From positions 3,212,503 to 3,276,502 of the forward strand of contig OY760867.2 in the NCBI GenBank assembly GCA_963664035.2: a DNA stretch of 64,000 nucleotides, read 5' to 3'. The notes beneath the pieces are model-generated. The model was not told the origin of the DNA, did no database searches, and worked only from the letters and a program-made list of their open reading frames with translations. The translations under genes were made by a program, and so were the position numbers. The stretch is from Dehalococcoidia bacterium (GTDB lineage Bacteria > Chloroflexota > Dehalococcoidia > Lucifugimonadales > G958296245). Below are positions 21,478 through 64,000 of the stretch, piece after piece. Every line of letters begins with the position of its first letter. Position 1 is the first letter of the stretch.

Positions 21478-21478
21478 T

Positions 21479-25418: not shown

Positions 25419-26047
25419 GCCGTTTCTTCGGGCTGGAAGAAAAGCCGCCTCAGCCACGAAACGAGAACGTCGGCTTGAGGCAGATTCGGATCGAGGAAGC
25501 GGGCCGTAATGGCAGTACCGTAGGGCAAGCCAGGCTCCGACTGCCATGCGAGCCAGGTGTGAATGACCGCCTTGGGCCTGTCATTGTCTTTGAAACGCTG
25601 CTCTGGGACCGAATCTACGCTGGCGGCCGCGTGGTCGAGGAGCGCGTCCCGTTGCGGAACCATGAAACGGAGAAAGTCCTCCAGGATTCCTGGGGTCTTG
25701 TTATCCGGCATTATCCAGACGCCTACCCTTGGTAGATCCGATTGGCGCTCCAATACCGTTTCATCAGTATCTGGCGCTTCCGGCACATTCTTGTATCCGA
25801 TCTGCATGAGCCGTTCACGAATGGACTGCCAGCGGGCGTCCAAGTTGGTATCCGCGTCGATTACCACGCCAACAACGTCTCCCTCCTCGGCGAACCGGAG
25901 TCTGGTGGGAATGCTCTCTAGCAAGCCGGGGGCGCCGCCATGAGTGGCGACCTCGTCCAGAAGCGGAAGGTCTCTATTGCCGCAGATATGCTTCAGGACG
26001 TGTTCGTCGTCTTTGTCCTCCACCAGCAATATCCTCAGGTTGGCCAA
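25415..26047 (-). CDS. Small Toprim-like partner protein, copy 1 (DUF3226/DUF4276/RloB-like class; assignment tentative)
   Basis: A TTG start lies 2 nt after the ATPase stop. (M)ANLRILLVEDKDDEHVLKHI...VVGVVIDADTNLD... has the same E ... D-x-D layout as copy 2, but the rest of the sequence is diverged. Confidence 0.6.
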   Translation of the reverse strand: MANLRILLVEDKDDEHVLKHICGNRDLPLLDEVATHGGAPGLLESIPTRLRFAEEGDVVGVVIDADTNLDARWQSIRERLMQIGYKNVPEAPDTDETVLERQSDLPRVGVWIMPDNKTPGILEDFLRFMVPQRDALLDHAAASVDSVPEQRFKDNDRPKAVIHTWLAWQSEPGLPYGTAITARFLDPNLPQADVLVSWLRRLFFQPEETA

Positions 26048-26049
26048 GG

Positions 26050-30748: not shown

Positions 30749-33700
30749 CTACTGGTCCTGGTCTTCGCCGCGCCTTCGGCGTCTGGCCGCAAGGAAGAGG
30801 ACCGCGGATGCCAATACGCCTATGGCGACGGCCACGGCTAGGAGCGCCGGCCACGCCAGCGGCGCCGGGGCGTCCCGGTCCACCGGCGCTCCCGGTGCGG
30901 CGGTCGGCTCCACGGCCGGCCCGGCGGTGGGAGTCGGCTCGGGCGTAGGCGTAGGCGTGACCGCAAGCGCCAACTCCGGCTCCGGCGTGGCCGTAGCTGT
31001 CGGCTCGGGCATGGGCGTGGGAGTAGGCTCCGGCGTGGCCGTAGCTGTCGGCTCAGGTGTGGGCGTGGGAGTAGGCTCCGGCGTGGGCGTAGCTGTCGGC
31101 TCAGGTGTGGGCGTGGGAGTAGGCTCCGGCGTGGGCACGGCTGTCGGCTCAGGTGTGGGCGTGGGAGTAGGCTCCGGCGTGGGCGCGGGTGTCGGCGCGG
31201 GAGTAGGCTCAGGCGTGGGCGCGGGTGTCGGCTCAGGCGTAGGCTCGGGCGTCGGCGCGGGTGTCGGCTCAGGCGTGGGCTCAGGCGTAGGCCCAGGCGT
31301 GGGCGCGGGCGTCGGCTCAGGCGTCGGCTCGGGTGTGGGCGCGGGCGTCGGCTCAGGCGTGGGTTCCGGTGTGGGCGCGGGCGTCGGCTCCGGCGTGGGC
31401 TCGGGCGTGGGCTCAGGCGTGGGCTCGGGCGTCGGCTCAGGCGTGGGCTCGGGCGTCGGCTCAGGCGTCGGCTCAGGCGTCGGCTCGGGCGTCGGTGTTG
31501 GTGTCGGCGTTGGCGTCGGCGTTGGCGTTGGCGTCGGCTCAGGCGTGGGTATGCGACCAAGCCCAGGCCTTGGTCTGGGATCGGGCTCTTCTATCACAGG
31601 AGGAGGCGCGGCGATGACCTCGCCCACCGTGACCGTCCCGATGGATATGCCGTGGTAGCCGGGGTCATGGCTGTGGGCGGTGTGCTCGACGGTGACCCCA
31701 TTGCGCGAGCCGATGTGTTCGCTGCCTGCGGTGATTCTGACGGTCTTCGCCTCGTTCCAGTCGTCGGGGGTGAAGAAGACGAGCGAGGGACTCGCCGTCA
31801 CGTCGCGGTCGCCGGTGACGTCTACCTTCACCACCACGTCGCTGGTGGGCCGCTCGTTGACGAGGACGATGGTGTAGGTGACGAACCTGCCTCCCTGCAC
31901 CTCGTCTATCTGCTCGGTGGATAGCTCCACGCCCCGGGTATTGACCACGGCGAACCCGGAAGGGTTGCCGTCGGCGGGGGACTTCACCACTGAGTTGACG
32001 GCCCGGACCTGGAACCCGTAGGAGTTCAGCGTGTCCAGGCCGTTGACGACGGCCTCGCGGGCATCGGCCCCGCCGGACACCGTCTTCCACGACGTGGGGG
32101 CTGTGCCGGCGCCATAGGATCGCTGCCGGTATTCCCATCCGGTGATGGTGGAGTCAGCGGGGCTGGGGTCGTCCCACGTGAGCCTGGAGGTCCCCAGATC
32201 CGTTCCGTTGCCGGCGGCAAAGTTTCGCGGTGGGGCCGGAGGCGTGACGGCGATGTTTTCGGTGGTCAGCTGGTTGATGGTGGCCGGGCCCGCTCCCGCC
32301 GTGTTCACCGCCCGAAGCTGGAAGCTGTAGGTCTGGCCTCGGTCCAGGTTGGTCACGGTGTATTCGGTCCTGGGCACGAGGGTGACGTTGGCCGGGGCCG
32401 CGCCGTCCGCGCCCGCCGCCGCCGAGGTGGTCTGCTCCACCATTGCGGAGATGTCCTTCCACCCCGTGTTGGTGGGCGGCGTCACCGTCGCCTCGTCCGT
32501 CGGCGGGTACGTCACGGTCTGCACAATGGGCCGCACTTCCACGGTGCAGACCTGGCTGGCTGGCGGCTGCCCGACGGGCGCGCACGTCGCGGTGTAGGAC
32601 GTGGTGGTTGCGCTGCTGCCCTGTATGTCCGCCCATCTGCCGAAGCTGCCCGTTCCCGTCTTCTGGCGGTACTGGTACTTCCGGATGGTGGCGTCCTGCG
32701 GGTCGTCCCAGGTGAGCGTCGTCCGATTATTGCCGGCGTTGAAAGCCGTGAACGTCCACGATGCATGGGCTTCCAGCGGGAACTCGACGTTCTTGATCCG
32801 CTTCACGGGGGCGACCTGGAAGAGGTACTCCTTGTCCGCGGCCAGTCCGCTGACCTTGTAGGACCTGATGGCGCCGTCGATATAGCCGCAGCAGCCGCCC
32901 AGGTACACCGTCGTGTCGGCTTGAGGCTGGGCGGAGAGCCTCACACTCACGTTCTGCGCCGTGTTCCAGTTGCCGGCGGTGAAGGTGAGCGTGGAGCGGC
33001 TGAAGACCACGCCGTCCATCGATAGCCTGACTCTTACGGTGGCGGCGGGCCTGGAGGCCAGCTTGACGCCGACGGTCTGGTTCGTGTTCCAGTTGCCGGT
33101 GGTGAAGGTGAGCGTGGACGAGCTGAAGTCCGGGCTGGTCGCGATGTCCGTCCATCCGCCCTCGACGGTCCCCGCTACGAAGTTCGACGTCGTGCCGCTG
33201 GGGGGCGTTGCCGTGGCCACGTCCGAGGCCGGGTGTACCACCGGGCGCACCTCCACCAGGCAGACCCGCCCGGTGGAGCATGAAACGTCCCAGGACGTGG
33301 TCGCTTCGTCGCTGGAGGGTATGTTCGTCCAGCTGTTGAAGCTGCCCGTTCCCGTCTTCTTCCGGTACTGGTACTTCACGACGTGGTTGTTGTTGGGATT
33401 GGCCCAGGTGAGCGTCGTCTTGTTGTTGCTGGCTGTGTAGGCGGTGAAGCTCCACGGCCCCACGGTCGTCACGATCATGCCGCTCTGCGACACGCCGCGT
33501 ATCTCGAAGGCGTACTCCGTGCCGTCGGCCAGGCCCGTCGCCCCGTAGGAGGTGGTGGACGACCCGCTGTTGGTTATATCCGTCCAGGCGCCGAAGCTGC
33601 CCGCTCCCGTCTTCTGGCGGTACTGGTACTTGTCGATAAAGCTGTTGTTCGGGTTGGCCCAGTACAGGGTGACCCGCCCGTTGGAGCCGATGTTGCCGAT

Positions 33701-36700
33701 GCTCCAGCTGTCCACCGCCGCAAGCGGCTTCTCCACGTTCGGCTTCACCGCCCGCACCTGGAAGGCGTAGGCCGTGCCGTCGGTGAGGCCGGTGACGGTG
33801 TAGGACCTCTGGGTCTTGGCCGCGCACGGCGAGGAGCAGGGTATGTTCGTCCAGGCGCCGAAGTCGCCCGTTCCCGCCTTCTGCCGGTACTGCCACCTGG
33901 TGACGGCCGGGTCGTTGGGGTTCACCCAGTACAGGGTCGCCTGGCCGCTGGCGGTGACGACGGCAAGGTCGTCCGGCTCGCCGGTGTCGGGGAGAACCCT
34001 GACCCGGTACCGCCACTTGACGATGTCGCTGTCGCTTGGGTTGGGCCACGACAGGGTGGTCTCCCCCGCGCCGCCCACGTTGGCGATGCTCTCGCTGAGC
34101 ACTGCCGGGCGCTCCTTCGAGGTGTTTTGCCGGGTCACGGCGCGTACCTGGAAGGTGTAGGTCGTGCCGTTAGTGAGGTCGGAGACCTCGTAGGAGGCGA
34201 GGGTGCGCACCGAGCACGGCGAGGAGCAGGGTATGTCCGTCCAGTCGCCGTAGTTGCCGAACTGCCCGCCGGAGGGCTTGGCCTTGGACCGGTACTGCCA
34301 CTTGGTGATGGCAGGGTCGTTGGGGTTCACCCAGTACAGGGTCGCCTGCCCGTCGGCGGCCACCGCCGCGAGGCTGCCCTCCATGATGCGGTACTGGTAA
34401 TTCCGGATGGAGTTGTCCTGGGGGTCGGTCCAGGTCAGGGTGGCCTGGCTGGCCCCCGTCTGCGTGACATTGCCAACGAAGTTCACCGGCTTGTCCGGCA
34501 GCAGCGTCACATCCTCCGCGTTGGACGCCGGGCCGTCGCCCGCCCGGTTGACGGCGCGCACCTGGAAGCGCATCACCTCGCCGTACACGCTCTCCACGAC
34601 GTGGAACGTGGACGAGTGGGTGCTGGTCGCCGTCTTCCAGAACGCCGCGCCCAGCAGCGTCGTCCATTCCCCTTCGTCGGTATCCGCGTCGCCGGTGGCG
34701 GCGCGGTACTCCCATCTGCTTACGGACGGGTCGGCCGGGTCGAGGGCGGCCCAGCTCAGCGTTACGTCGAAGCCCTGGTCCGACGCGTCGTAGGATACGG
34801 TCGTTATCCTGGAGAGGGTGGTCGCCGCCGGAGTCAGCGTTACGCTGGCGACGCTGGAGGCCACGCCGCCGCCGCCGAGGTTGACCGCCCGCACCTGGAA
34901 CCGGTATCCGGCCCCGGTGGCGCTGAAGGGCAGATCGTAGCTTCTCGTGTCCTTGTCGCTTCCTGGGATGTCCGTCCAGGCAGCGGCGTTCAGGTCAACG
35001 CCTGCCAGGGCGACCCGGTACTGCCACCTGACGATGGTGGGGTCCGACGGCAGCGTCCAGCTCAGCGTTATCCGGAAGTCGTTGGTGGCCTGCCTGTACG
35101 ACTTGGCGGCGGCGAGGCTCTGGGGCTCTCCGGGCTTGGCCGGGAGCTTGACCTGGTTGGAATCGTCCGACGCGGGGCTGTCGCCCGCGGGGTTTTTGGC
35201 GCGAACCTGGAAGGCGTAGGTCGTCGCGCTGGTCAGGCCGGTCACGGTGAACGTCCTGGTGCTCGCGTCGCTGGGGGACATGTCCGTCCACGGGCCGTAG
35301 CCGCCGAACTGCCCGCCCTTGGGCTTGGACTTGTAGCGGTACTGCCAGGCGGTTATGGACGGGTATCCGGGGTCGTTCCAGGACAGGGCGGCCTGCCGGA
35401 AGCCCTTTACCGCCGCCAGGCCCGTGGGCTTGAGGGGCTTCGTCGCGGCGGAGGCCACCGCCGAGCCGGGCCCGGCCACGTCGTTGGTGTTCACGGTGCG
35501 GACGCGGAAGTAGTAGACCGTGCCCGCGTCGAGGCCGGGGATGGTCAGCCTGTTGGTCGCCGAATTGCTCCCCGGGACATTGGCCCAGGCGCCCCAGGCG
35601 GCGGCGCCTTCCTTCTGGCGGTACTGCCACTTCCGGATGGCGGTGTCGGTGGTCGTAGCCCAAGAGAGGGAGACCGTCGTGCCCGCGGCGCTGGCCGACA
35701 GGTCCGTGGGCTGGGACGGCGCCGGCTGCGGCGTGGCGGACGCCTCGCCCGACGCGGCGCCCGTGCCGATGGAGTTGACCGCGCGTACCTTGAACGAGTA
35801 CTGCGTGGCGTTGGTCAAGCCGGCCACGGTGTAGGACATGGTGTCCGCGCCGGAATCGGTCACGCCGGTCCAGGAGCCGTAGTTGCCGCTCACCCCCTCC
35901 TTCTGCTGGTACTCGTACTCGGTGATGGAGGAGTCGTTGGGGTCGTCCCAGACCAGCACCACCTGCGCGTTGCCCGGCTCCGCCGCCAGGTTGGCGGGGG
36001 GCGCCGGGTACATGGTGGAGGCCTTCTCGTCCGACGGCGCGCCGATGCCGACGGCGTTCACCGCGCGAAGCTGGAACTTGTACGTGATGCCGTTCACGAG
36101 GTTTGTGACGGTGTGCGAAGTGGAGGTCGCGCTGGTGCTAACCGTCGTCCACGCCTCGAGGCCCGTGGCCGCCGCGGTGTTGTTCGACGAGACGTAGCCC
36201 CGCACCCGGTAGGTGTAGCGCGTCCCGCTGGTCAAATTCGCCGTTACGATGTGCGTCCTGGTGGCCGCGTTGCTGGACGAGATGTCCGTCCACGTGCTGC
36301 CGTCGGTGCTGTACTGCCACTTGGCGACGCTGCCGTTCTCGGGCCCCGTCCACTCCAGCGCGACCTCGGTGCTTGCGCCCCGGCCCACGACGAAGTCCGG
36401 GAAGTTCCCGGTGCGCATCCTGGCCTGCCACTTGGTGATGGTGGAGTTGTCCGCGCCGGCCCACGACAAGACCGTCTGCCGGTTTCCACCCGCCACGGTG
36501 AAGCCTACGGGCTTGGCCGGGAATAGAGCGAAGCTCACGGCGTCGGAGGCGGGGCTGATGCCGTTGGGCTTGGCGTTGTTGATGGCGCGTATCCGGGCCT
36601 TGTAGCTCGCGCCGTTGGAGAGGTCCAGCGTCACCTCGGTGGTGGCGTGGTCGCTGCCGGAGACGTGCCGCCAGCCGCCGGCCGCGGTGGGCGTTGCGCT

Positions 36701-39700
36701 CACCGGGCCCCTGGCGGTCCCGGCGACGAGATTGCCGCCGGAGTCCACGGCGCGCACCCGGTAGGCGTAGGCCGTGCCGTTGGTGAGGCTGCTCACGGTG
36801 GCCTGGCGGGCCGACGCGCCACCGGAGACGTCCGTCCAGCTCGCGCTCGTGGACGTGCTGTACTGCCACTTGGAGATGCCGGCGTTGCCCGCGTGCGTCC
36901 ACTTCAACGTCGCCTGGGCGTTGCCCGGTATGGCCTCCGTGCCGTCGTTGGCCACGCGCCACACCAGGTACTGGTAGCCCCAGCCGGTCGTACTGACGTC
37001 GGTGGTGGCCGTCCAAGAGAGGGTCGCCTGGCCGTCGCCGCCCGTCCCGCCCAGGCCCGCGGGCTTGGTCGGGCGGGCCAGCGGTATGACCGAGACCTCG
37101 GCGGAGACGGGGCTGTGGCCCAGCCCGTTGGCGGAGCGCACCTGGTAGGTGTACGTCTTGTTGTTGTCCAGGCCCGTGAGGGTCCTGGTGTGCCAGCGGT
37201 CGCTGCTGGACGTGCTCTCCTCGTTCACCGTTACCCAGTCGCCGTAGCCGCTCTCGGTGTCGCTCTTGGGCTTCACCCGGTACTGCCAGGAGTGGAAGTA
37301 GGGGCTCGAGTACGAGTTCATGGTGTTGTACCAGCGCAGCACGGCCTGGCCGTCGCCGCTGGTGACGGTGAAGCCGCTGGGCTTGAGAGGCTTGGTGGCG
37401 ACGGGGAAGGCCCAGTCCGTGTCGGAGGCCGCGCCCGGGCCGCTGCCATTCACCGCCCGCACCTGGAAGTGGTACTTCGTGTTCCACGTCAGCGGCGGCG
37501 TGTCGAAGCTCGTGGTGTTGCCGGCGCTGCCGGGCACGTCGGCCCACGCCGCCGACGTGATGGCGCTTGCGCCGCCGCTCGTGTAGCGGTACTGCCAGTG
37601 GGTGATAGTGGAGCCGCTGGGCGCGGTCCAGCTCAACGCGGCGAACCCAAGCCTGCCGCTCGCGGCGAATCCCGTCGGCTTGCCGGGCAGGGCGCGGGGG
37701 ATGGCCGCCGCCTCGTCCGACTCGTCGCCGTCGCCGGAGGCGTTCACGGCGCGGACCTTGAACCTGTAGGTCGTGTCGTTCGTCAGCCCGATCAACTCGA
37801 CGGACGTGGTGGCCGCGCCGCTGTTGGATATGGCCGTCCAGTTGCCCCAGGTGTTGGCGCCCTCCTTCTGCCGGTACTTCCAGCCGGTGATCGTGGAGTT
37901 GTTCGGGTCCGTCCAGCTCAGCGTCACCTTCGAGACCTTGGGCGTCGCCGTCAGGCCCGCGGGCTTGGCCGGCGTGGGCAGCGCGGGCTTGGCCTCGGCG
38001 GACTCGTTGGAGGCCGGGCCGGCGCCGGCGGCGTTGACGGCGCGCACCTTGAACCTGTACGTCGTGCCGTGGGTCAGGCCGGTCACGGTGTATGCCAGGT
38101 TGTTGCCGGACGCAGTGGGCGTCATGTCCGTCCATGCGCCGTAGCTGCCGTAGCTGCCGCCGTCGGGCTTGGACTTGTACTGGTACTGCCACGCGGTGAT
38201 GCTGTCGTTATCGGGGTCAGTCCAGGACAGGTCGACCTGGCCCTCGGTGTACAGGATGGACGTCTTGTCGGTCTTGGCGGCGGCGGTCGGGCGCGACGGC
38301 TTCGCCGGCAGCGTGGGAGCCGACACCTCGTCGGACACCGAGCCGTTGCCGGAGGTGTTCACGCCCCGCACCTGGAAGGTGTACGTAGCGCCGTTGTCCA
38401 GGCCCGTAACCGCGTAGGTCGTCGTGGAGTTGCCGGGGCTTGGCCCGGACGTCCAACTGCCGTAGTTGCCCGTTCCCTTCTTCCGCCGGTACTGCCAGCT
38501 ATCGACGTGGGTGGAGCCGCCCTTGGTCCAGACCAGCGTGACCTGGGCGTCGCCGCCGGTGGCGCTGAGCGAGGGGGCTTCCGGAGCGCCGGCCACGGGC
38601 CGGGCCGAGGCCTCGTCGGACGCCGGGCCTGGGCCGTTGATGTTGACGGCGCGAATCTTGAAGGTGTGGGTGACGTTGTTGCTCAGGTTGCTCACGGCGT
38701 AGGACGCGGTGGACGCGCCGCTGTTAGGCACGTCGGTCCACTTGCCGTACCCGCCGGTCGTCTTGTACTGGTACTGCCACTTCTCGATGCTGGCGTTGTT
38801 GGGGTTGGTCCAGGACAGGGCGACCTGGCGGTTGTTGGGCAACGCCGAAAGGCCCGTGGGCTTGGAGGGAACGGGGATGGGAGTGGCCGACGCCTCGGCA
38901 GAGGCCGCGCCGTCGCCGGCGGAGTTCACCGCGCGAATCCTGAATGTGTGGGACGTGTTGTTGGTCAGCCCCGTTACGGTGTAGGACTTGGTGGACGCCG
39001 TGCCGTTGGGCACCGCCGTCCACGAACCGTAGCCGCCGCCGGTCTTGTACTGGTACTCCCAGCCTGTGATGGTGGAGTTGCCGGGGGCGTGCCACGTGAG
39101 ATCGACCGACTGGTGCTTGCCCGCGGCGGTGAGGCCCGTGGGCTGGGCGGGCACAGGCACGGGCGTGGCCGTCCGCTCGTCGGACGGCGCGCCGATGCCG
39201 TAGGAGTTCGATGCCCGGATTCGGAAGGTGTACTCCGTGTTGTTGGTCAAGCTGCCGACTGTGTGAACGGTGGCGGCGGCCGAGGTGGACATCTGCGTCC
39301 ACGAGCCGTAGCTGCCCGCGCCGGACTTCTGCTGGTACTCCCACTTGTCGATGGTGGAATCGCCGGGGTCGGTCCACTTCAGCTCGACCGACTGGTGCTT
39401 GGCCACGGCGGTAAAGCCGGCGGGCTTGGCCGGCGCGCTCTTCGGCGTCGCCGTCGCCTCGTCCGACGCCGCCCCCTCGCCCGACGCGTTCACCGCCCGC
39501 ACCTTGAACTTGTACTCCGTGTCGTTCGCCAGTCCGGTTACGGTGACGGACGTCGCGTGAGACCCTATGGCGGAGCTGAGGTCGACGGTCTTGGAGCCGC
39601 CTGGAGGCGCTGCCGCCAGCTTGACGGACACCCCCTGCGCCGTGTTCCAATTCTGCGTCGTGAAGGTGAGCGTGGAGGGCGCGAAACGAACGTTGACGCC

Positions 39701-54700: not shown

Positions 54701-57700
54701 GCCCATGTTGTCCTCCGGGCTGCCGAAGGCGGCGGCGTAGCTGGTCGAGTCGGAGGCGTTGTCCACCACGCCGTCGCCGTCCAGGTCGTAGCGTATGGCG
54801 TTCAGCTTCGCCAGCGAGTCCACGTCTATCAGGCCGTCGTTGTCCGCGTCGTAGTCCACGTCGCCTGTGGTGGGCGTGATGCTCGCCGGGTCCGACGGCA
54901 CGGAGTTGTCATAGCCCGTCTTGGTGGCGATGACCCGGAAGTAGTACGTCGTCCCCGACATCAGCCCCGTCGTGACCTTCAGCGTGGTGTTGCCGCCGCC
55001 CGATACCGCCGTCTCCGTGACGACGGCGAAGGTGGTGGACATGCTCCGCTGCACGGTGTACCCCGTAGCCCCCATCACCGTGTCCCAGTCCACCTGCACG
55101 TTCACGCCGTCGACGGAGAGCTTGACGCCCGTGGGATTGGCCAGCGTGTCTTCGTCGACGATGGTGATGGACAGGGCCGCGCCGGGGATGCTCACCCACG
55201 GGTCGCCGGTGTCGGCGGCGAGGGTGAACGACGGGTCGGTGGCTACCTGCGTCTTGTTGTTCACCGCCGTCAGCGTCGCCGTCGTCGTTGTCGCGCCCTT
55301 GGCGATGGTCATCGTCGTCGTGCTAAGCGTGTACGCCGAGTTCGTCGGCAGGGTGACGATTACGTCGGCGTGCCAAGCGTTGGCCAGGGTGGCGGTGATG
55401 GTGGCCGAGGTCTGCGGGCTCGCGCCGCAGGCGTTGGCGTCGGTGCCCTTGGCGGACTCGCAGATGGTGGTCCGGTTGGCGGACATGGTGATGGTGGCCC
55501 GCTGCGGCGGGATCGTCAGGTGGTATTGCAGCACCGGGTAGTCGGACGCCGTCCCGAAGTGCCACGGGTCGTCGTTGCCCGTCACGCCGTCCAGGTTCAG
55601 GTCCCAGTTGGCGTAGATGGCGTTGCCCGTGCCGTAGGCCGTGGGCGTCTGGAGCTCGCTGGTCGTCTTGCCCGTGCCCTGGCCGGTGGCGGTGATGCCG
55701 GACACGTCGGTGTCCCAGTAGCTGTCGGTGGTCGTGCCGGAGACGTGATTCCCGGTCAGGCCGCCGACGCTGTTGGTAGGTTGGTAAATAGTGCCGGTGC
55801 CTGTGGTGGTGGCCGTGGGCGTTCCGACGGAGTAGCTGGCGGTTATCTTGCCGCCGTCCTGCGTCCCCACGAGGCCGCCGGCGTTGAGCTTGGTGAAAAG
55901 GTTGTATTGAACTCCAGTGGCGTAGGCGGTCGCCGTCGCGTCCGCCTCGGAGTAGCTGGACTTGATTTCGCCGTCCTTGTGGTAGCCGATGAGGCCGCCG
56001 GCGTGCCCTTCCCCATTGTTTTGAGAACTGACGATGGCGGTTGCGGAGCCGCGGGCATAGGTGGCGACGATGTCGCCGCCGTCCTGGTAGGCGACGAGGC
56101 CGCCGGCGTAGGACTTGGAGTTGGCGTCGTTGGCGGCGAAGTTGGCGGTGGTGGTGACGCGGGCGTAGCTAGACGTTATGGAGCCGCCGACCTGCCGCCC
56201 AATCAAGCCGCCGGCGTGGGGGTGCTTGTCCGTGCCGCTGACCGGTTCGACGGTGGCGTTGACGGTTCCTGTTACGTATGTCTTGAATATCTCGCCCGCG
56301 CTGTACCCCGCCAGACCTCCGGCATAGACTTCGGGGGCGCTGGGGATGCTGGTGAGGTAGTTCTTGAACGTTACGGAGACGTCCTCCACGCCCAGGTTCC
56401 TGATCTTCGCGCCGCTGCCCACGTCTCCGAACAGCCCGGCGAAGAGTGTATATATGTGAGGGTCCGTATTGGTGCCGCTGCCGGTCCGCGTCCCGCGGCG
56501 GTTGATGAACAGGTTGGAGATGACGTAGTTGTTGCCCTCGAAGACGGCGTTGAAGGGGTCGCTGCTGCCGTCGGGCGAGGTGGAATCGTGGGCGATGGGC
56601 TGCCAGCCCGCCCCGCCGTCCCAGTAGGTGTCGCCCGTTATGTCGGTGCGCCTGTCGTTGTTGGTGTCGAAGTCCAGGCTGTTGGAAAGCTCGTAGCCCG
56701 TGCAGGCGGGGTTGCCCGTGCCCGCCATTATGGAGGCGACGGACTCGTTGCAGCCCATGTTGTCCTCGGCGTTCGGGAACGCCGTGTCGTAAGAGGACTG
56801 GTTCGACGAGTCATCGGCCACCCCGTCGCCGTCCAGATCCCACCGAATGGCGTTGAGCTGGGCGAGGGTGGTAATTTCGATCAGCCCGTCGTTGTCCGCG
56901 TCGTAGTCGCCGTCGCCCGCGCTGGTCTTGGTCGTCGCGCTCACCACGTCGGACGGCTGCTCGTCCACGCCGCCGCCCTTGGTGGACAGCACCCGCACGT
57001 AGTAGGTGGTGTCGGCCGTCAGCGCGGGCGTAGGGCTGATGGTATAGGTTACGGTGCTGCCGCTCGATATGGTAGTCGTTCCCGTCGGGCTTGCCCACGA
57101 GTCCGCCGTGTGCCACTCCACCCTATAGCCCGTCGCGTCCGTAACCTGCGTCCAGTCCACCTGTATCTTCGTGCCGTCCACCGAGAGCTTGACGTTGGTG
57201 GGCTTGGCGAGCTCGTCGTCGTCCTTGATGGTGAGCGTCAGGGTGGACGGGGTAATCGCGATCCACCCGGTATCGAACGATACGCTGGGCGCTAGGTCTA
57301 TGGCGTTGTCGGCCGGTTGCGTCGTTCCGCACGCGCCCGTGCCGCAGTCGGTGTTGTTCACCGCCGTAATCGAGGTTGTGGCCACGGTTGTGCCGGCGGG
57401 GAAGGCGAGCGTGGTCGTGCCCAGGGTGTATGCGCTGCTGGGGGCCAGCGTGGCGACGGCATCGGAGTTCCATGCCTTGTTCAGCGTCAGGGTGAGCACG
57501 GTGGAGTTGGCGCGGCTCGGCGTGATGAGGGCGCGCTCCCAGATCGTCGTCGTGCTGAGCGACAGCGTAGTGGTGGCGCGCTGGTCGGCCGGGTCCAGCG
57601 TGCCGTACTTGAGCGCCGGGTACTGGCTGGCCGAGCCGAAGTGCCAGGGGTCGTCGCCGCCCGTTACGCTGTCCAGATCCAGGTTCCAGTTCGCGTAGAT

Positions 57701-60700
57701 GCTGTTGCCCGTGCCGTAGGCCGTAGGCGTCTGTAGCTCGCTGGTGGTCATAGGCGTGCCCGTCGCGCTGGTGGAGACACCGGAAGTCTGCGTGTCCCAG
57801 TACGAATAGGTGGTGCTGCCGCCGCCCGTGCGGAATCCCACCAGCCCGCCCGTGCTCAGCGTGCCGTCCCCGCTCGCCGTCACCGCGCCGGTGGCGAATG
57901 ACGCCGTGATGTTGTTACCGGACTGCCTACCCACCAGGCCGCCTGCGTAGGACCATCCAGTGATGCCGGTCGTGACCGCCGCGTCGTAACTGGCGAAGAC
58001 GTCGCCCCTGGCGTAGGACGCGCTCACGCTTGCACCGGAGGACAGGTATCCCACCAGCCCGCCCGCGTAGGCATTGCTGCTGTTTTGGGCGCTGGTGTTA
58101 GCGACAACGTCCCCGCCAGCGTAGGATGCGCTCACGCTTCCATGAGAGTGCCCAATCAGGCCGCCCGCGTAGATGCCGATGCCGGTCTGTGTGCCCGTCG
58201 AGTAACCCGTCACGTCGGCCAGGGAGTAGCTGGAAGTGATGCTACCGAAAGACCGGCCCACCAAGCCGCCCACGTAAGTCTGGCCGCTATAGGTGAAGGT
58301 GACGGGGTTCGTGGCCGACTCGCCGGCCCGCACCCTGCCGGTAGTGTAGCTGTCTTCGATGGTGCTCGGGCCGATGTAACCCGCAAGCCCGCCCACGAAA
58401 ACGCTGTCGCTGCTGATCGTCGTGCTGACCGTGATGTCCACGTTCACCAACCCGACGTCCTCTACGGTATGGTTGCCATTGCTGTCGAATCTCCCGAACA
58501 GGCCCCAGTGTCTGCCGCCCACCGTGCTGTTGATGAACAGGTTGCTTATGGTGTAAGGCCCGCCGTCGCCGCTCGCGTCCGTGTCCGCGTTGCCGTCGAA
58601 GTCGCCGGTGTAGGGATTCGCATTCGTCCTAGTCGTAGTCGCGCCGATCGGGTTCCAGCCCGCGCCGCCGTTCCAGTACGTATCGCCGATGTCCGCGCCC
58701 GACGGGTTGGCCGTCGACGTCGCGCTGCCGTCGGTGTTGAAGTCCAGGTTGGCGCGCAGTTCGTAGCCCACGCAGCCGGTGTTGGGGCAGCCCAGGTTCG
58801 CCACGCCCCCGGAGAAGGCGGCGGTGTAGGTGGAGGTGCCGTGCTCGGGCGAGCCGTTCCCGTCCAGGTCGTAGCGAACGGCGTTAAGCTGCGCCAGCGT
58901 GGTTATCTCCAGCATCCCGTCGCCGTCGGCGTCGTAGTCCTTGCCCGGGCTTACGTTGCTGGTAGTGGTGAAGGCGCTGTCGTCTATGCCGCTGTTGGCC
59001 GCGCCCACCGCGGACACACGGACGTCGTACAGCTTGGTGGGGTCGAGGCCGGTAATGGTGTGGCTGCACTTGGTGTTGTTCTCCAGCGTGCAGGACGACG
59101 CCTGTACGGTAGCCGCCAGGGTCCAGGCGCTCGCCGTGGACTCCTTGTACTCCAGCTTGTAGGCGGCCGCGCCCGTGCTGGTGGCCCAGGTCACCACCAG
59201 GGACGTCCGGTTCGGGTTGCCCGTGTCCTTGGCCGCCGCGATGCTAGACGGCGCGGCCAGTTCGTCGTCGTCCTTGATGGTGATGGTGGTGGTCGCGCCA
59301 ATGATGACCCACGTGGTGTTCGTGTGGTCGTTGCCGCGTGCGAGGGTTGCGACGAAGTCGTTGGCGTCCAGGTAGTTGTTCACCGCCGTCAGCGACGTGG
59401 TGGCGGTGGTGGCCCCGGCCGATATGGTGAGCGTGTTCGCGCCCAGCGTGTACGCGGCGTTCGTCGGCAGCGTCACCACCACGTCCTCGTTCCACGTCCC
59501 GTTCAGCGTCGCCGTCAACTCGGCCGAATTCACCCTGCTCGGGCTGCTAAGCGCGCGCTCCCAGATAGTGGACGGGCTGACGCTCAGCGTAGTAGTGGCG
59601 CGCTGGTCGGCCGGGTCCAGCGTGCCGTACTTCAGCACAGGGTACTGGCTGGCCGAGCCGAAGTCCCACGGGTCGTCGTTCGTGTTGTCGCTGTCCAGGT
59701 CCAGGTTCCAGTTCGCGTAGATGCCGCTGTAGCCCGTAGGCGACTGTGACTGCGCCGTCGTCTTGCCCGTACCCTGGCCCGTGGCGGTGATGCCGGAGGT
59801 GTCCGTGTCCCAATAGGAGTTGGCGGCAGTGCCGCTATTATTGCCCACCAGGCCGCCCGCCGCGAGCGTTCCGTCTCCCGTCGCCGTGGGCGCGCCGGTG
59901 GAGAAGGACGCGGTAACGCTGCCGGTCCCGGTTTGGTAACCCACCAGGCCACCCGCGTAGGCTTTGCCGGTCATGCCGGTTGTGACAGTGTCGTCATGGT
60001 CGGCGGAGACTTCCCCCCTCGCGTAGGACGCGCTCACGCTTCCAAGAAGGTATCCCACCAGGCCGCCCGCGTAGGACTCGCTGCTGTTCTGGGCCTCGGT
60101 GTTGGCGGAGACGGCCCCGCCCGCGTAGGACGCGCTCACGCTTCCACTACTGCCGACGTATCCAACCAGGCCGCCCGCAAAGGTCCCAATGTTGGTATTG
60201 CTGCTGCCCTTGGAGTGGCCCGTGACGTCGGCCAGCGAGTAGCTCGCGGTGACATCGCCTTCGATCCTGCCCACCAGCCCGCCTACCCGGGAGTAACTGT
60301 AGTCACCCGTGAAAGTGACGGGGCTCGTAGCCGACTCTCCGGCCCTGACCCGGCCGGTGGTGTAGCTGTCCTCGATGTTCACGCCCCCACTGCCCATGAG
60401 TCCCGCCAGCCCTCCCACGTCGACTTCGCTGACGCCCGACGGGGTCAAGGTAACGTCCACGTTGACGAGGGCGACGTTCTCCACCAGCGCGCCGCTGCCG
60501 CCGTTGAGGTAGGCGAAGAGGCCGGCGTACTTGCCCGAGGTGCGGGCGATGAAGAGGTTGGAGATGGTGTAGGTGTTGCCGTTGAAGTCGCCCGTATATG
60601 CGGTGACCGTGTACGGGCTGGCGCTTGCCATGCCGATGGGCAGCCAGCCCGTGCCGGAGTTCCAGTAGGTGTCGCCGGAGTCCGCGCCCGTGGGGTTGGC

Positions 60701-63700
60701 GCTGCTCTTCGCGCTGCTGTTGGTGTTGAAGTCCAGGTTCGCCGCTAGCTCGTAGCCCGTGCAGGCCGGGTTGCCGGGGCCCGCCGTTATGGTGGCGGCG
60801 GACTCGTTGCAGCCCATGTTGTCCTCGGCGTTCGGGAACGCCGCCGCGTAGCTCGTCGCGTTCGCCGCGTCGTCCACGACGCCGTTCCCGTCCAGGTCCC
60901 ACCGCATCGCGTTAAGCTGCGCCAGGTTGCTGACCTCGATCAGCCCGTCGTTGTCCGCGTCGTAGTCCCCCGTCCCCGCGCTGGCCTTGGTCGTGGCGCT
61001 CACTGCGTCCGACGGCGGCTCGTCCGCCCCGCTCTTCGTCGGCAGCACCCGCACGTAGTACGTCGTGTTCGCGCTCAGCGCGGGCGTCGGGTCGATGACG
61101 TAGTTCACCGTGCTCCCGCTCGACACGGTAGCCTCCGACGGACTTGCCCACGAGTCCGACGTGTTCCACTGCACCTTGTACCCAGTCGCCCCCGTCACCT
61201 GCGTCCAGTCCGCCCGTATCTTCGTGCCGTCCACCGACAGCCTGAGGCCCGTCGGCTTCGTCAGCTCGTCGTCGTCGTTGATCGTTATGCTTACGTCCGT
61301 GCCCTTCGAGACCCACGTCGTGTCCGTGGGATGGGTCGCCTGCGTCAGCGTCACGACGGCGTTCGCGGCGTCCACGAAGTTGTTCACCGCCGTCAGCGTG
61401 ACCGTCGTAGTCGTCGCCCCCGCCGCGATGGTGCTCGTAGCCGCGCTCAGCGTGTACGCCGCGTTCGTCGGGAAGGTCACCTCCACGTCCTCGTTCCATG
61501 CCTTGTCCAGCGTCGCCGTGACCGTCGCGCTGTTCACTCTGCTAGGGCTGCTCAGCGCCCGCTCCCAGATCGTCGCCGGGCTCACGCTCAGCGTCAGCCC
61601 GGCGCGCTGGTCCGCCGCCGTCAGGCTCTCGTACTTCAGCGTCGGGTACTGGTTCGCCGTCCCGAAGTCCCACGCGTCCTGCAGGCCCGCCGTCGTCGTG
61701 TCCAGGTCAATGTCCCAGTCCTTATATATGTCGTCCGCGCCCGTGCCGTAGGCCGTCGGCGTCTGGAGCTCGGAGGTCGTCTTGCCCGTGCCGGAGCCCG
61801 TGGCCGTGATGCCCGATGCCTGCGTGTCCCAGTAGGAGTCCGACGTCGCGCCGCCCGTGCGGTGGCCCGCCAGCCCGCCCGCCGCCAGCGTGCCGTCTCC
61901 CGTCGCCGTTGCCCGTCCCGTGGAGAACGACGCCGTGACGTTCGCGCCCTGCCAACCCACCAAGCCGCCGACCCTCGCCCGTCCTGTGACGTTTGTGGTT
62001 GCGGTGGCGTCGTAGTCGCCGGAGACCGCGCCCCGCGCGTAGGACGCGCTAATTGCCCCGTTGGTGTGTCCGACCAGGCCGCCAGCGTGGACCCTCCCGT
62101 TGTTCTGCGCCACGGTGTTTCCCGACACCGCCCCGCCCGCGAACGACGCGCTCACGCCCCCACTGCCGACGCGGCCGGCCAAGCCGCCAACGTTCGTCAC
62201 GACTCCGGTCTGCGCGCTCGTCGAATAGCCCGTCACGTCGGCCAGCGAGTAGCTGGAAACGATGCTGCCTTTCGACCAGCCCACCAGGCCGCCGACGTAG
62301 GAATTGAGGCTGCTCGCGGTGAGCGTCACCGGCTCGGTGGCCGACTCGCCGGCCCGAACCCTACCCGTGGTGTAGCTGTCCTTGATGGACACGGTCGTGT
62401 TGAAGACGTGCCCCGCCAGGCCGCCCACGTGAACGGCGCTGCCCGTCGTGACGTTCAGCGTCACGTCCACGTTCACCAGCGAGACGTTCTCGATGGTCTG
62501 GTTTGTGCCGTTCAGATGCGCGAACAGCCCCGCGTAGTTGCCGCTCGTCCGGTCGATGTACAGGTTTGAGATGGTGAAGGTCTGGCCGTCGAAGTCGCCG
62601 GTGTAGGCGCTGCCGCTCACGCCGCCGATGGGCTCCCATCCCGCGCCGGAGTTCCAGTAGGCGTCGTCGCTGCGGGTGCCCTTCGTCCCCGTGTCGAAGT
62701 CCAGGTCCTTGGTCAGCTCGTAGCCTCTGCAGGCGGGGTTGCCGGTGTCGTTGGAGGAGATGGACGCCGCCGTCTCGCCGCAGCCCATGTTGTCTTCGGC
62801 GTTGGGGAATGCCAGGTCGTAGCTGGCCTGGTTGCTGGGATCGTCCGCCTGGCCGTCGCCGTCCAGGTCCCAGCGAATGGCGTTGAGCTTGGCGAGGGTG
62901 TCGACGCCTATCAGCCCGTTGTTGTCGTTGTCGTAGTCCACCTTGTTGGAGGCGGGCGTCGCGCTCACCGAGTCCGACGGCGTGGAGTCGTCGTAGCCCG
63001 TCGCCGTGGCGATTACGCGGAAGTAGTAGGTCGTGCCCGACGTCAGCCCCGATGTGACCCTCAGCGTGGTGTTGCCGCCGCCCGTTACCGGCGTCTCCGT
63101 GACGGTGGCGAAGGTGCTGGACGCGCTCCGCTGCACCTTGTACCCCGTCGCGTCCGTAACCGCCGTCCAGTCCAACTGGACGTTCGCGCCGTCCACCGAG
63201 ATTTTGACGCCGGTGGGCTTGGCGACGATGTCCTCGTCCGTGATGGTCAGGGACGCCCCGGTGATGTTCACCCAGTTCCGGCCCGTCGCCGGCGTCAGCG
63301 TCACCGTATTGTTCGCCGCGTCCGTCTTGTTGTTCACCGCTCCCACCGTCAGCGTTCCGCTCGTGGAGCTGGCGGCTATGGTTATCGTCGACTTCGCCGT
63401 GCTGCCCGACTTCAGGGTGTAGACGGCGGCGTTGGTGCTGAACGTGAGGGTTACCGGGACTTCCTGCGCCGGGCTGATGGTGGCCGTCATCGTGGAGGAG
63501 GTTAAGGGAGACGCGCCGCAGGCGCTCGCGTTCGTTCCGGCCGAGCTTTCGCAGATGCTGGCCGGCGAGAACGCCACGGTCACCGCCGCCCGCTGGTCCG
63601 CCGCCGTCAACCCGTAGTCCAGGACGGGGTATTGGGTGGCGGTTCCGAAGTCCCAGGGGTCGTCGTTGGCGCTTGTGCCGCCAACGTTCACGTCCCAGCT

Positions 63701-64000
63701 GGCGTAGATGCCCGTCTCCGTAGTCGGCGTCTTCAATGCGCTGGTGGTCTTGCCCTCCGGCGCGTTCGAGTCCGTGTCGTCGGCGATGCCGGAGGTCGTG
63801 GCGTCCCAGTAGCTGTAGTTGACCGTGCCGGACTGGGTCGCCGTGAAGCCGCCGGACGCGGTGGTCGCGCCGGTCCCGGTCCCCGATCCCGTGTGGCTTC
63901 CCGTGGAGAAGGACGCGCTGATGGTCGCGCCGCTCGCGTTCGTCGCCGCGAACCCGCCCCGCGCGACCTTGTTGCCCTTGACCGTGCCCGCGCCGTGGGA
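30749..64000 (-). CDS. Giant cell-surface protein (GLUG modules + cadherin/Ig-like segment + ~53 FN3 + PT stalk + C-terminal TM anchor); at least 11,083 codons, 5' end beyond the right window edge
   Basis: The track ORF 30749..63736 starts at an internal TTG. The same frame translates without a stop to 64000 as ...[36 protein letters not shown]...[28 protein letters not shown](L)[10 protein letters not shown], which is the normal module sequence. The stop TAG is at 30749-30751. The amino-acid composition is coherent and non-degenerate across 33 kb. Confidence 0.9.
30785..30853 (-). other. C-terminal transmembrane anchor followed by RRRRR stop-transfer tail
   Basis: [34 protein letters not shown]-stop. 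I see no LPXTG, PEP or GG motif directly before it. Confidence 0.7.
30860..31606 (-). repeat. Pro/Thr/Glu-rich low-complexity stalk (PTPEPTPEP...), with 48-bp tandem DNA units at ~31021-31165
   Basis: The protein runs [30 protein letters not shown]...([12 protein letters not shown])n...[16 protein letters not shown]... On the plus strand, gagtaggctccggcgtggccgtagctgtcggctcaggtgtgggcgtgg is repeated 3 times with point changes. Confidence 0.9.
31950..48095 (-). repeat. Array of ~53 fibronectin type III domains (manual count of F-strand Y-x-F-x-V-R-A-V-N-type motifs)
   Basis: The recurrent unit is P(A/S)KP(T/A)G(L/F)TAxxxxxxVxLxWxDPxxxxIxxWxY(R/Q)[37 protein letters not shown](Q/K)(V/I)RAVNxxGxGxxSxExxATP. 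A C-terminal Ig-like domain at 31610-31945 carries ...[20 protein letters not shown]... Confidence 0.85.
48095..48870 (-). other. Unique central segment: Ig-like domain ([18 protein letters not shown]) plus cadherin-like domain ([14 protein letters not shown]...[22 protein letters not shown])
   Basis: The translation runs [40 protein letters not shown]...[15 protein letters not shown]...[21 protein letters not shown]...[31 protein letters not shown]...[10 protein letters not shown]. It occurs only once in the window. 48110-48420 looks less GC-rich by eye. Confidence 0.6.
48870..64000 (-). repeat. At least seven ~2-kb tandem GLUG modules, each with the same six parts
   Basis: Each module runs in order: a Ca-binding DxDxDG pair, a Cys pair, a GLUG beta-helix-like repeat region, an SYWDT motif, an Ig-like DDD(E/F)L domain and an FN3 domain. 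DYD(A/N)D(N/G/D)(D/N)GLI(E/D/G) motifs lie at ~62.92, 60.95, 58.92, 56.89, 54.84, 52.83 and 50.81 kb. Each module has 6-10 (A/V)GGL(V/A/I)G repeats, followed by [31 protein letters not shown]...[17 protein letters not shown]. Confidence 0.85.

What the first reader, a model, noticed from the sequence alone, without database searches (positions are those of the whole stretch)
30749..64000. Uninterrupted ORF of more than 33 kb (at least 11,083 codons), still open at the window edge
The frame is open over 33,252 nt and the sequence is domain-structured throughout. The track start at 63736 is an internal TTG: upstream codons continue the module (...[37 protein letters not shown]). With its 3,817+-codon paralog 19 kb away, over 70% of this window encodes two surface proteins. 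Such proteins are rare and are usually adhesins or cell-cell contact fibres.
Basis: seen in the sequence. Interest (0 to 1): 0.7.

Follow-up and report, generated by a model that had tools for sequence, protein, structure and literature searches.

The report
Giant membrane-anchored surface fibre gene
The 33-kb open frame is real and encodes most of a cell-surface protein of more than 11,000 residues. It comes from an uncultured Dehalococcoidia bacterium whose closest relatives appear to be sponge symbionts. It looks like a long stalk of FN3 domains carrying at least eight probable binding heads, so it is an unusually large member of a common but unstudied protein family, not a new kind of system.

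Summary
Observation confirmed. On the minus strand, 30749-64000 is stop-free for 11,083 codons and runs off the window edge. GC3 is 0.92 throughout, so it is coding along its whole length.

It is not an assembly artefact. Internal repeats are only 64-77% identical at DNA level, not 85-92%. No exact repeat of 60 nt or more exists in the window. Three public Dehalococcoidia MAGs carry collinear orthologues that are 84-91% identical in protein over giant aa ~3000-6300.

**Architecture, from the window edge to the C-terminus:**
- At least eight ~660-aa supermodules. Each has EF-hand/dockerin-like loops, a GLUG right-handed beta-helix like the N-terminal domain of IgA1 protease, a beta-sandwich and an FN3 domain.
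- A rod of about 56 FN3 domains, some nested inside others.
- A ~245-aa Pro/Thr/Glu spacer.
- One transmembrane helix followed by RRRRR.

The paralogue (1-11452) starts with a signal peptide followed directly by a head.

Most likely function: a Sec-exported, tail-anchored, multivalent adhesion fibre. The stalk is conserved and the distal heads are mosaic. The head family is large (16,614 cluster representatives) and occurs in several phyla; many source MAGs look sponge- or coral-associated.

It is a new member of a known kind, of moderate interest.

The parts
30749..64000 (-). Giant ORF: 11,083 sense codons plus the stop codon at 30749-30751. The N-terminus lies beyond the window edge.
   Evidence: GC3 0.92 throughout; orthologues in L002, L006 and L011.
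62939..64000 (-). Partial supermodule 0 (aa 1-354): last beta-helix rungs, YWD/GKTTS cap, beta-sandwich and FN3. Its head begins outside the window.
   Evidence: It is 83.5% aa identical to L002 residues from 1633, and L002 is still open upstream.
48854..62938 (-). Seven complete supermodules of 657-684 aa (aa 355-5049). Boundaries are at window 60968, 58940, 56909, 54857, 52853 and 50825. Each has a DYDxDxDG...DLDGxG Ca-loop pair, a Cys-Cys loop, a GLUG beta-helix, an SYWDT...GKTTSELQ...QYPxL cap, a Calx-beta-like beta-sandwich and an FN3 domain.
   Evidence: Pfam Glug and fn3 pass their thresholds. AF2 gave pLDDT 85.5 and pTM 0.80. The PDB profile hit is IgA1 protease. Foldseek hits are 3n6z and 6xjb, and NCX1 CBD plus FN3.
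48083..48853 (-). Non-repeated region (aa 5050-5306) between the heads and the rod. It looks like an Ig-like beta-sandwich, but no family is assigned.
   Evidence: Only sub-threshold Pfam and NCBIfam hits: Ig_SibA 0.012, Big_9 0.016, tandem-95 0.005.
31949..48082 (-). FN3 rod (aa 5307-10684): 48 full FN3 matches plus about 8 split FN3 domains. The split ones carry another FN3, or '[12 protein letters not shown]' units, inserted in the C-C' loop.
   Evidence: Pfam fn3 E 1.8e-278; own FN3 HMM.
44705..45229 (-). Example of a nested FN3 (aa 6258-6432): N-half, then a complete FN3, then the C-half.
   Evidence: Profile positions 1-39, 5-91 and 43-85 match in consecutive hits. No structure was predicted for it.
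31601..31948 (-). Last folded domain (aa 10685-10800). It looks like a beta-sandwich with an [13 protein letters not shown] motif.
   Evidence: no family hit.
30866..31600 (-). Pro/Thr/Glu-rich spacer (aa 10801-11045). In the 245 residues counted, P is 105, T is 63 and E is 33.
   Evidence: tandem array of period 12/24/36.
30785..30859 (-). The only transmembrane-like helix (aa 11048-11072, [25 protein letters not shown]).
   Evidence: Kyte-Doolittle mean 2.77; the next best segment in the protein scores 1.43. No LPXTG or other sorting-signal model hits.
30752..30784 (-). Short basic cytoplasmic tail, [11 protein letters not shown].
1..11452 (-). Paralogue, at least 3,817 codons, running off the left edge. 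It has a signal peptide (MIGARRGTGPGRLRAGPALALAALAAAVLLWSGGAVYA) followed by six supermodules. An alternative TTG start with a GGAGG upstream lies at about 11497.
   Evidence: Pfam Glug and fn3.

Best explanation
The ORF encodes all but the N-terminal part of one giant cell-surface protein, at least 11,083 aa and probably 11,400 to more than 12,700 aa. The organism is an uncultured Dehalococcoidia (Chloroflexota) related to public MAGs that are probably sponge-associated.

**Proposed mechanism**
1. Sec export through an N-terminal signal peptide. This is inferred from the paralogue and from orthologue L006.
2. The protein stays attached through its single C-terminal transmembrane helix, with the RRRRR tail in the cytoplasm (positive-inside rule).
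3. A ~245-residue Pro/Thr/Glu spacer crosses the envelope.
4. A rod of about 56 FN3 domains projects outward.
5. The distal 5,000 or more residues display at least eight 'heads'. Each head has a Ca2+-loop pair and a GLUG right-handed beta-helix like the N-terminal domain of streptococcal IgA1 protease. Heads are separated by a beta-sandwich plus FN3 spacer.

The heads are the probable ligand-binding units. The whole protein would then be a multivalent adhesion or contact fibre that ties the cell to host matrix or host cells, or to other microbes. Fully extended, it would reach a few hundred nm. This estimate uses textbook domain sizes: about 3.5 nm per FN3 and 0.48 nm per beta-helix rung.

The stalk and the proximal heads are conserved between genomes, while the distal heads are exchanged as cassettes. 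This is consistent with diversification of binding specificity at the tip.

**Shown:** the ORF, its domain content, its topology signals, its orthologues and the mosaic pattern. **Inferred:** export, extension, binding and the ecological setting.
For: **A real gene**
- Stop-free for 11,083 codons with GC3 0.92 throughout.
- No near-identical repeats.
- Collinear orthologues in L002, L006 and L011 at 84-91% aa and 83-94% nt identity over giant aa ~3000-6300.

**Extracellular and anchored**
- One TM segment only, at the C-terminus, followed by RRRRR.
- 25 closely spaced Cys pairs.
- Signal peptide followed directly by a head in the paralogue and in L006, L028, L035, L038, L043, L052, L054, L061, L062 and L076.
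- No sortase, PEP-CTERM or similar signal model hit.

**Domains**
- Pfam fn3 E 1.8e-278 and Glug E 3.8e-32.
- 55 full and about 8 split FN3 domains.
- AF2 module pLDDT 85.5, head pLDDT 81 and pTM 0.85.
- The head matches 3n6z (E 2e-5, TMt 0.58) and IgA1-protease N-terminal domains with probability 1.0. The sequence profile hits 6xjb, 6xja and 7jgj at E 3e-9.
- Enzymatic beta-helices (lyases, hydrolases, tailspikes) match only at E > 0.2 and probability < 0.15.

**Tip diversification**
- Proximal heads have 1:1 orthologues at 81-93% identity.
- Distal modules are 40-63% identical or missing in one genome, and up to 98% identical in another.

**Ecology**
- The best relatives are MAGs of Dehalococcoidia, Ca. 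Poriferisodalis, Latescibacterota, Acidobacteriota and Gammaproteobacteria.
- FN3 genes are reported as enriched and laterally transferred in sponge symbionts, especially in Chloroflexota and Actinobacteriota (PMC8163846).
- Giant bacterial proteins are generally linked to adhesion (bioRxiv 10.1101/2023.11.21.568195).
Against: - No ligand or binding activity is known for any GLUG beta-helix. In IgA1 protease the homologous domain is part of an enzyme, not an adhesin.
- The giant's own N-terminus is outside the window, so its signal peptide is inferred.
- The sponge habitat is inferred from the names and origins of related MAGs, not from the window. The source contig was not found in any collection.
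- The non-orthologous relatives whose C-termini are visible end without a TM anchor, so the anchoring may be lineage-specific.
- There are no expression data.
- The Ca2+-loop assignment rests on motif only (Pfam EF-hand_1 E 0.28, no Dockerin hit).
Confidence: 0.6

Rival explanations
1. It is a structural envelope or matrix component (an S-layer-like spacer, sheath or biofilm scaffold). It would keep cells at a distance or build an extracellular mesh, with no specific ligand recognition by the heads.
For: The topology and the long rigid FN3 rod fit a spacer as well as an adhesin. The stalk and proximal heads are highly conserved. No binding domain of known specificity was found.
Against: The distal heads turn over as cassettes between close relatives, which is typical of interaction surfaces rather than scaffolds. 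The heads are arrayed at the end farthest from the membrane anchor.
Confidence: 0.15
2. It is an enzyme-bearing or enzyme-recruiting scaffold. Either the beta-helices are glycan-cleaving enzymes, or the dockerin-like loops dock cohesin-bearing partners in a cellulosome-like way to degrade host or dissolved polymers.
For: Right-handed beta-helices are common in polysaccharide lyases and hydrolases. Weak Foldseek matches to such enzymes exist (ranks 8-48). The DxDxDG loop pairs resemble dockerins, and homologue P0075 ends in a clearer dockerin-like repeat.
Against: The enzyme matches have E > 0.2 and probability < 0.15, against probability 1.0 for the non-catalytic IgA1-protease domain. There is no Pfam lyase, hydrolase, peptidase, Dockerin or cohesin hit. 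No cohesin gene is in the window.
Confidence: 0.08
3. It is a host-mimicry or immune-evasion coat. The FN3 and Calx-beta-like domains would imitate sponge matrix or aggregation-factor proteins so that the symbiont is not phagocytosed, rather than serving attachment.
For: FN3 and other eukaryote-like domains are enriched in sponge symbionts (PMC8163846). Foldseek finds Calx-beta (NCX1 CBD)-like plus FN3 tandems in each module. Sponge aggregation factors are known to contain Calx-beta domains; this comes from general knowledge and PMC5400394 was listed but not read.
Against: Pfam Calx-beta does not hit. The FN3 domains are of an ordinary bacterial type. There is no evidence on host interaction at all.
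Confidence: 0.1
4. It is an assembly artefact or a decaying pseudogene that happens to stay open because stop codons are rare in GC-rich DNA.
For: The genome is 67% GC. Out-of-frame ORFs of up to 2,446 codons occur in the same region.
Against: P of about 1e-108 for chance openness. GC3 is phased over the whole length. There are no long near-identical repeats. Intact orthologues exist in three independently assembled MAGs.
Confidence: 0.02

Closest known systems
N-terminal GLUG beta-helix domain of Streptococcus pneumoniae / Gemella IgA1 proteases (PDB 6xja, 6xjb, 7jgj, 7uvk) and Bacteroides ovatus BACOVA_03286 (PDB 3n6z)
   Same: Same Pfam motif (Glug) and the same right-handed beta-helix fold. 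The sequence profile gives E 3e-9 and Foldseek gives probability 1.0 with TMt 0.58 to 3n6z.
   Different: No M26 peptidase domain anywhere in the giant. Here the helix is preceded by a Ca-loop pair and is repeated at least 8 times in tandem on a stalk.
Ebh/Embp giant surface proteins of staphylococci (about 10,000 aa); comparison from general knowledge, not tested here
   Same: Similar size, an N-terminal signal peptide, hundreds of nm of repeated domains, and a C-terminal transmembrane anchor with a basic cytoplasmic tail rather than an LPXTG motif.
   Different: Unrelated repeat types (FIVAR/GA helical bundles versus GLUG beta-helix plus FN3), and a different phylum and envelope.
Giant 'extender plus distal ligand-binding' RTX adhesins (MpIBP, LapA, SiiE); from general knowledge
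   Same: Same design logic: a long rod of Ig-like domains holds binding modules far from the cell, and Ca2+-binding motifs are present.
   Different: Those are T1SS substrates with C-terminal RTX repeats and are retained by the N-terminus in an outer membrane. Here the C-terminus is a TM anchor, no RTX or T1SS signal is present, and the polarity is reversed.
Giant proteins of Omnitrophota and other phyla (West-Roberts et al., bioRxiv 10.1101/2023.11.21.568195), and the FN3-rich genes enriched in sponge symbionts (Robbins et al. 2021, PMC8163846)
   Same: Size above 10,000 aa, repetitive adhesion-type domains, dockerin-like motifs, and FN3 enrichment in Chloroflexota sponge symbionts with lateral transfer.
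   Different: Neither paper describes the GLUG-head supermodule array. Only two papers in the searchable library mention the GLUG motif at all.

Membership tests
Pfam Glug (PF07581) beta-helix proteins | GLUG motif repeats scoring above the Pfam gathering threshold | tested here: met
   108.9 bits against a cutoff of 20.5 for aa 1-5000. A single module scores 33.4 bits. The paralogue scores 97.1 bits.
Pfam Glug (PF07581) beta-helix proteins | Right-handed beta-helix fold like 3n6z or the IgA1-protease N-terminal domain | tested here: met
   AF2 head model with pTM 0.85. Foldseek hits 3n6z at E 2e-5, and 6xjb, 7jgj and 7uvk at probability 1.0.
IgA1 protease / ZmpA-type M26 metalloproteases | Peptidase_M26 catalytic domain | tested here: not met
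   No M26 family among the Pfam hits over the whole giant or the paralogue.
FN3 (PF00041) tandem arrays | Multiple FN3 domains above threshold | tested here: met
   900 bits with 29 independent stretches in aa 5001-10000. The window-derived HMM finds 55 full and 16 half matches.
Sortase-anchored LPXTG surface proteins | LPXTG (or variant) motif before the C-terminal hydrophobic segment and basic tail | tested here: not met
   The C-terminus reads ...[16 protein letters not shown]...[14 protein letters not shown], which has a TM segment and a basic tail but no LPXTG. NCBIfam gives no hit on the last 217 aa.
T1SS RTX giant adhesins | C-terminal RTX nonapeptide repeats and secretion signal, with T1SS genes nearby | tested here: not met
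   No HemolysinCabind or RTX hit at or below 1e-3. The C-terminus is a TM anchor. The neighbours are defence genes.
Type V autotransporter / two-partner secretion adhesins | C-terminal beta-barrel or N-terminal TPS domain | tested here: not met
   No such Pfam families. The paralogue's N-terminus is a signal peptide followed directly by a head. The giant's own N-terminus could not be seen.
Dockerin (cellulosomal type I) | Dockerin_1 profile match to the duplicated Ca-binding loop-helix | tested here: not met
   There is only a motif-level resemblance (DxDxDGxIE ... DLDGxG). No Dockerin hit at E <= 1, and EF-hand_1 scores E 0.28.
Calx-beta domain | Calx-beta profile match or CBD-like fold | tested here: inconclusive
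   Foldseek top hits are NCX1/CALX CBD12 (E 6e-6), but the alignments also span the adjoining FN3. There is no Pfam Calx-beta hit.

The most novel reading that the evidence does not exclude
The GLUG-head cassette array may be a laterally shared symbiosis determinant of sponge (and coral) microbiomes. In this reading each head recognises a different host-matrix or partner-cell ligand. The conserved stalk with an exchangeable distal head set would work as a host- or niche-specificity code, traded between phyla (Chloroflexota, Actinomycetota, Acidobacteriota, Latescibacterota, Gammaproteobacteria).
Probability: 0.2. Interest if true: 0.7.

Novelty: new member of a known kind. Interest (0 to 1): 0.4.

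Why it matters
At more than 11,000 residues this is among the largest bacterial proteins, and it is intact and conserved in at least four related genomes. It gives a clear anatomical model for a very common but unstudied family. That family has 16,614 cluster representatives, many of them multi-thousand-residue proteins.

The related MAGs come from several phyla and appear to be sponge- or coral-associated. If that holds, these proteins are candidates for how uncultured symbionts hold on to, or are recognised by, an early-branching animal host. The conserved stalk with a mosaic tip suggests concrete experiments, namely testing individual heads for binding. As a kind of object, a giant repetitive surface adhesin, it is not new.

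Tried and rejected
**Locating the source contig, to reach the true start**
- A 60-nt exact search with the window end found nothing in genome contigs or metagenome contigs.
- Exact look-ups of five neighbouring proteins found nothing.
- P0006 could not be looked up.
- The start therefore remains unknown. The orthologues bracket it: L006 starts with a signal peptide and a head, whereas L002 has at least 1,632 further residues and is still open.

**Annotation attempts that gave nothing**
- Cluster names for NCBI-held homologues: none carry a name.
- Pfam and NCBIfam at E <= 1 on the non-FN3 pieces (aa 5050-5306, the FTTxNW inserts, the last domain, the C-terminus): only sub-threshold noise.
- Promoter and terminator scan at the 3' end: nothing.
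- Searches for MAG accessions and for 'Poriferisodalis' in the literature: no papers.

**Method note**
- Foldseek with the whole module was dominated by the two beta-sandwiches, so the head was modelled and searched separately.

**Readings rejected**
- A protease (no M26 domain).
- A glycanase beta-helix (weak matches only).
- LPXTG, RTX or autotransporter anchoring.
- Chance ORF, artefact, or real antisense genes.
- Concerted evolution of the repeats (heads are 45-73% identical to each other but up to 93% identical to their orthologues).
Full report
**1. The observation**

The window is 67% G+C. On the minus strand, positions 30749-64000 hold 11,083 sense codons with no stop, and the frame is still open at the window edge. 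From base composition, a stop is expected every ~45 codons, so the chance probability is about 1e-108.

G+C at third codon positions is 0.87-0.97 in every 1000-codon bin and 0.81 in the Pro/Thr-rich last 83 codons. This matches the neighbouring genes. The long ORFs that overlap it in other frames (for example + 49982-57295) have their G+C peak at codon position 1, so they are shadows.

The paralogue exists: minus strand, ATG at 11452, at least 3,817 codons, 44-55% identical.

One claim fails. Within the window the long repeats are 64-77% identical at DNA level, the heads are 45-73% identical in protein, and no exact repeat reaches 60 nt. The only simple array is the in-frame Pro/Thr linker at 30977-31549. 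Mis-assembly by repeat collapse is therefore unlikely.

**2. Anatomy**

Residue numbers below count from the window edge.

*Supermodules.* Residues 1-5049 are one partial and seven complete supermodules of 657-684 aa. Each supermodule contains, in order:
- DYDxDxDGLIE...DLDGxG, a pair of EF-hand/dockerin-like loops. This is a motif-level assignment only, since Pfam is not significant.
- A loop closed by two invariant cysteines.
- A beta-helix whose rungs carry the GGLxG 'GLUG' motif. Pfam Glug scores 108.9 bits against a cutoff of 20.5.
- A conserved cap, SYWDTxTSG...[11 protein letters not shown]...PWDFG...QYPxL.
- A beta-sandwich.
- An FN3 domain.

*Structure models.* AlphaFold2 on an alignment of modules gave pLDDT 85.5 and pTM 0.80. 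The head alone gave pLDDT 81 and pTM 0.85.

A profile of the module hits the S. pneumoniae IgA1 protease structures at residues 176-316 with E 3e-9. Foldseek with the head finds BACOVA_03286 (3n6z, E 2e-5, TMt 0.58) and the N-terminal domains of IgA1 proteases with probability 1.0. Lyases, hydrolases, tailspikes and autotransporters appear only at E > 0.05 and probability < 0.15.

The whole-module search matched Calx-beta (NCX1 CBD)-like plus FN3 tandems, which corresponds to the two C-terminal sandwiches. No peptidase domain is present.

*Rod and C-terminus.*
- Residues 5050-5306 are a unique, unassigned Ig-like stretch.
- Residues 5307-10684 are an FN3 rod. Pfam fn3 scores E 1.8e-278.
- An HMM built from the protein itself finds 55 full FN3 matches (48 in the rod) plus 9 N-halves and 7 C-halves.
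- In several places the halves flank a complete FN3 (for example aa 6258-6432), so a domain is inserted in the C-C' loop of another. At the same loop, three sites carry two or three '[12 protein letters not shown]' units each.
- A last beta-sandwich-like domain follows, then a 245-residue Pro/Thr/Glu spacer.
- The protein ends with its only hydrophobic helix (aa 11048-11072, hydropathy 2.77 against 1.43 or less elsewhere) and then [11 protein letters not shown].
- There is no LPXTG, and no sorting-signal model matches.
- All 50 cysteines occur as 25 pairs spaced 1-17 residues apart, as expected for an oxidising, extracellular location.

**3. Relatives**

The source contig is not in the searchable collections.

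The module has more than 3,150 homologues in the 90%-cluster database. The head alone matches 16,614 representatives of 50%-identity clusters at E <= 1e-3, and 1,760 at E <= 1e-30. Many of these are 2,000-7,400 aa long with up to 24 matched stretches.

In species-representative genomes, 578 confirmed relatives were found. The best 80 are all MAGs. Most are Dehalococcoidia. Others are:
- Ca. Poriferisodalis, Ca. Poriferisocius and other Acidimicrobiia;
- Latescibacterota;
- Acidobacteriota (Versatilivoraceae, Vicinamibacterales);
- Gammaproteobacteria (Azotimanducaceae, Oxydemutator).

Taxon names such as Poriferisodalis and isolate labels suggest sponge and coral metagenomes. From my own knowledge, SB0661 MAGs come from a sponge and Plut MAGs from the coral Porites. 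Sanger sponge genome notes report MAGs of exactly these phyla (PMC12398682). The habitat of each individual MAG could not be checked.

The head alone is the widely shared unit. The full supermodule is mostly found in Chloroflexota, but also occurs at 52% identity in an Acidimicrobiales MAG (L029).

In 22-kb loci from related MAGs the ORF often spans the whole locus (L002, L009, L011, L012, L025). Many relatives begin with a signal peptide followed at once by a head, as the paralogue does.

**4. Orthologues and evolution**

Three Dehalococcoidia MAGs carry the orthologue: OY760908.2 (L002), CAXXLI010000002.1 (L006) and OY762956.1 (L011).
- From giant aa ~3000 to the end of each locus (up to aa 6314), identity is 84-91% in protein and 83-94% in DNA for most windows, and the alignment is strictly collinear. 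One window near aa 5200-5500 drops to 76-80%.
- The distal 3,000 residues are a mosaic. The module at aa ~1500-2250 has no close counterpart in any of the three (40-60%).
- Residues 2501-2750 are 98% identical to L011 but 44% identical to L002.
- Residues 1201-1400 are 95% identical in DNA to L002 but 68-73% identical to the others.
- The four proximal heads (at aa 2365, 3049, 3717 and 4393) have 1:1 orthologues at 81-93% identity, while heads within the protein are only 45-73% alike.

So the repeats are old and individually conserved, not homogenised. Whole modules are gained, lost or swapped at the end farthest from the membrane.

L006 starts with a signal peptide and a head. L002 has at least 1,632 residues upstream of the segment that matches the window edge at 83.5% and is still open. 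The giant is therefore probably 11,400 to more than 12,700 aa long.

**5. Mechanism**

The best-supported reading is a Sec-exported, C-terminally tail-anchored fibre. It would consist of a membrane helix and basic tail, an extended Pro/Thr spacer through the envelope, a long FN3 rod, and a distal array of at least eight beta-helical heads that act as binding units.

The topology signals and domain content are shown. Export, extension (a few hundred nm from standard domain dimensions) and binding are inferred. The mosaic tip on a conserved stalk is the pattern expected of an interaction surface.

The literature supports the general frame. FN3-containing genes are enriched and laterally transferred among sponge symbionts, particularly Chloroflexota and Actinobacteriota (PMC8163846). 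Giant bacterial proteins are generally associated with adhesion (bioRxiv 10.1101/2023.11.21.568195).

The rivals cannot be excluded without experiments. These are a passive envelope or matrix scaffold, an enzyme or enzyme-docking scaffold, and a host-mimicry coat. An artefact or pseudogene is close to excluded.

**6. Comparison and novelty**

The head belongs to the Pfam Glug beta-helix family by both sequence and fold, and the rod is ordinary FN3. The protein fails the defining features of IgA1 proteases (no M26 domain), LPXTG proteins, RTX/T1SS adhesins and autotransporters.

In design it resembles Ebh/Embp (a giant protein with a C-terminal TM anchor) and MpIBP-type 'extender plus distal binder' adhesins. 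Both comparisons come from general knowledge and use unrelated domains.

Because relatives are abundant in public data and close orthologues exist in public MAGs, I rate it a new, very large member of a known kind. The supermodule array itself appears undescribed, since only two searchable papers even mention the GLUG motif. Interest is 0.4.

**7. Surroundings**

Between the two giant genes lie an Hma defence system interrupted by two AbiL/PDC-M38-like gene pairs, two tandem Uma2 genes, a fused sensor kinase-response regulator, and an ArsR-glyoxalase pair.

Noticed in passing
window 17483-30554 (minus strand): A complete Hma defence system: HmaA helicase 27177-30554 (E 3.5e-205), HmaB DUF1156 methylase 22575-25547 (E 3.5e-143), and HmaC DUF499 ATPase with an N-terminal HEPN domain 17483-20836 (E 2.7e-123). 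Two AbiL/PDC-M38-like ATPase-plus-partner pairs are inserted between its genes: 26050-27378 with 25415-26047, and 21479-22537 with 20857-21522 (the latter is DUF3226).
   Followed up: partly
window 12184-13768 (+): Two tandem Uma2-family (putative restriction endonuclease) genes that are 87% identical in DNA.
   Followed up: partly
window 13980-16355 (+): A single polypeptide combining GAF, PAS, HisKA, HATPase, receiver and an OmpR-type DNA-binding domain, which is a fully fused two-component system. An ArsR-type regulator (16595-16963) and a glyoxalase-family gene (16990-17373) follow it.
   Followed up: no
giant aa 5406-5678, 6258-6432, 6436-6616, 6993-7166, 8977-9160, 9161-9331 (e.g. window 44705-45229): FN3 domains split into N- and C-halves by a complete FN3 inserted in the C-C' loop (nested FN3). 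This rests on profile coordinates only; no structure was predicted for it.
   Followed up: partly
giant aa ~5880-6000, 8060-8130, 10290-10360 (window ~46000-46360, ~39610-39820, ~32920-33130): Short '[18 protein letters not shown]' units, two or three in a row, inserted at the same FN3 loop. No Pfam or NCBIfam family matches them.
   Followed up: partly
giant aa 1-3000 (window ~55000-64000) versus L002, L006 and L011: Mosaic similarity to the orthologues. Patches of 94-95% DNA identity (aa 1201-1400 with L002, aa 2401-2800 with L011) sit next to segments of about 70%, which suggests recent exchange of module cassettes between lineages.
   Followed up: partly
L029 (Acidimicrobiales MAG OY763490.2), L052 (Latescibacterota) and other loci: The full supermodule occurs at 52% identity in an actinobacterial MAG. 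The head alone occurs at 38-44% identity in Acidobacteriota, Latescibacterota and Gammaproteobacteria MAGs. This cross-phylum sharing is compatible with lateral transfer.
   Followed up: no
window 11452-11620 (minus strand): An unusually A+T-rich stretch lies just upstream of the paralogue and is a likely promoter region. A GGAGG motif sits 8 nt before an in-frame TTG at about 11497, so the paralogue's start may be 15 codons upstream of the ATG at 11452.
   Followed up: no
L001 (ENA ERZ21830300 contig, 48 kb): A metagenome contig with a row of same-strand genes of 595, 1,434, 1,059 and at least 5,133 residues from the same family. This suggests that some giant genes are annotated as several shorter ones, or really are split.
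   Followed up: no
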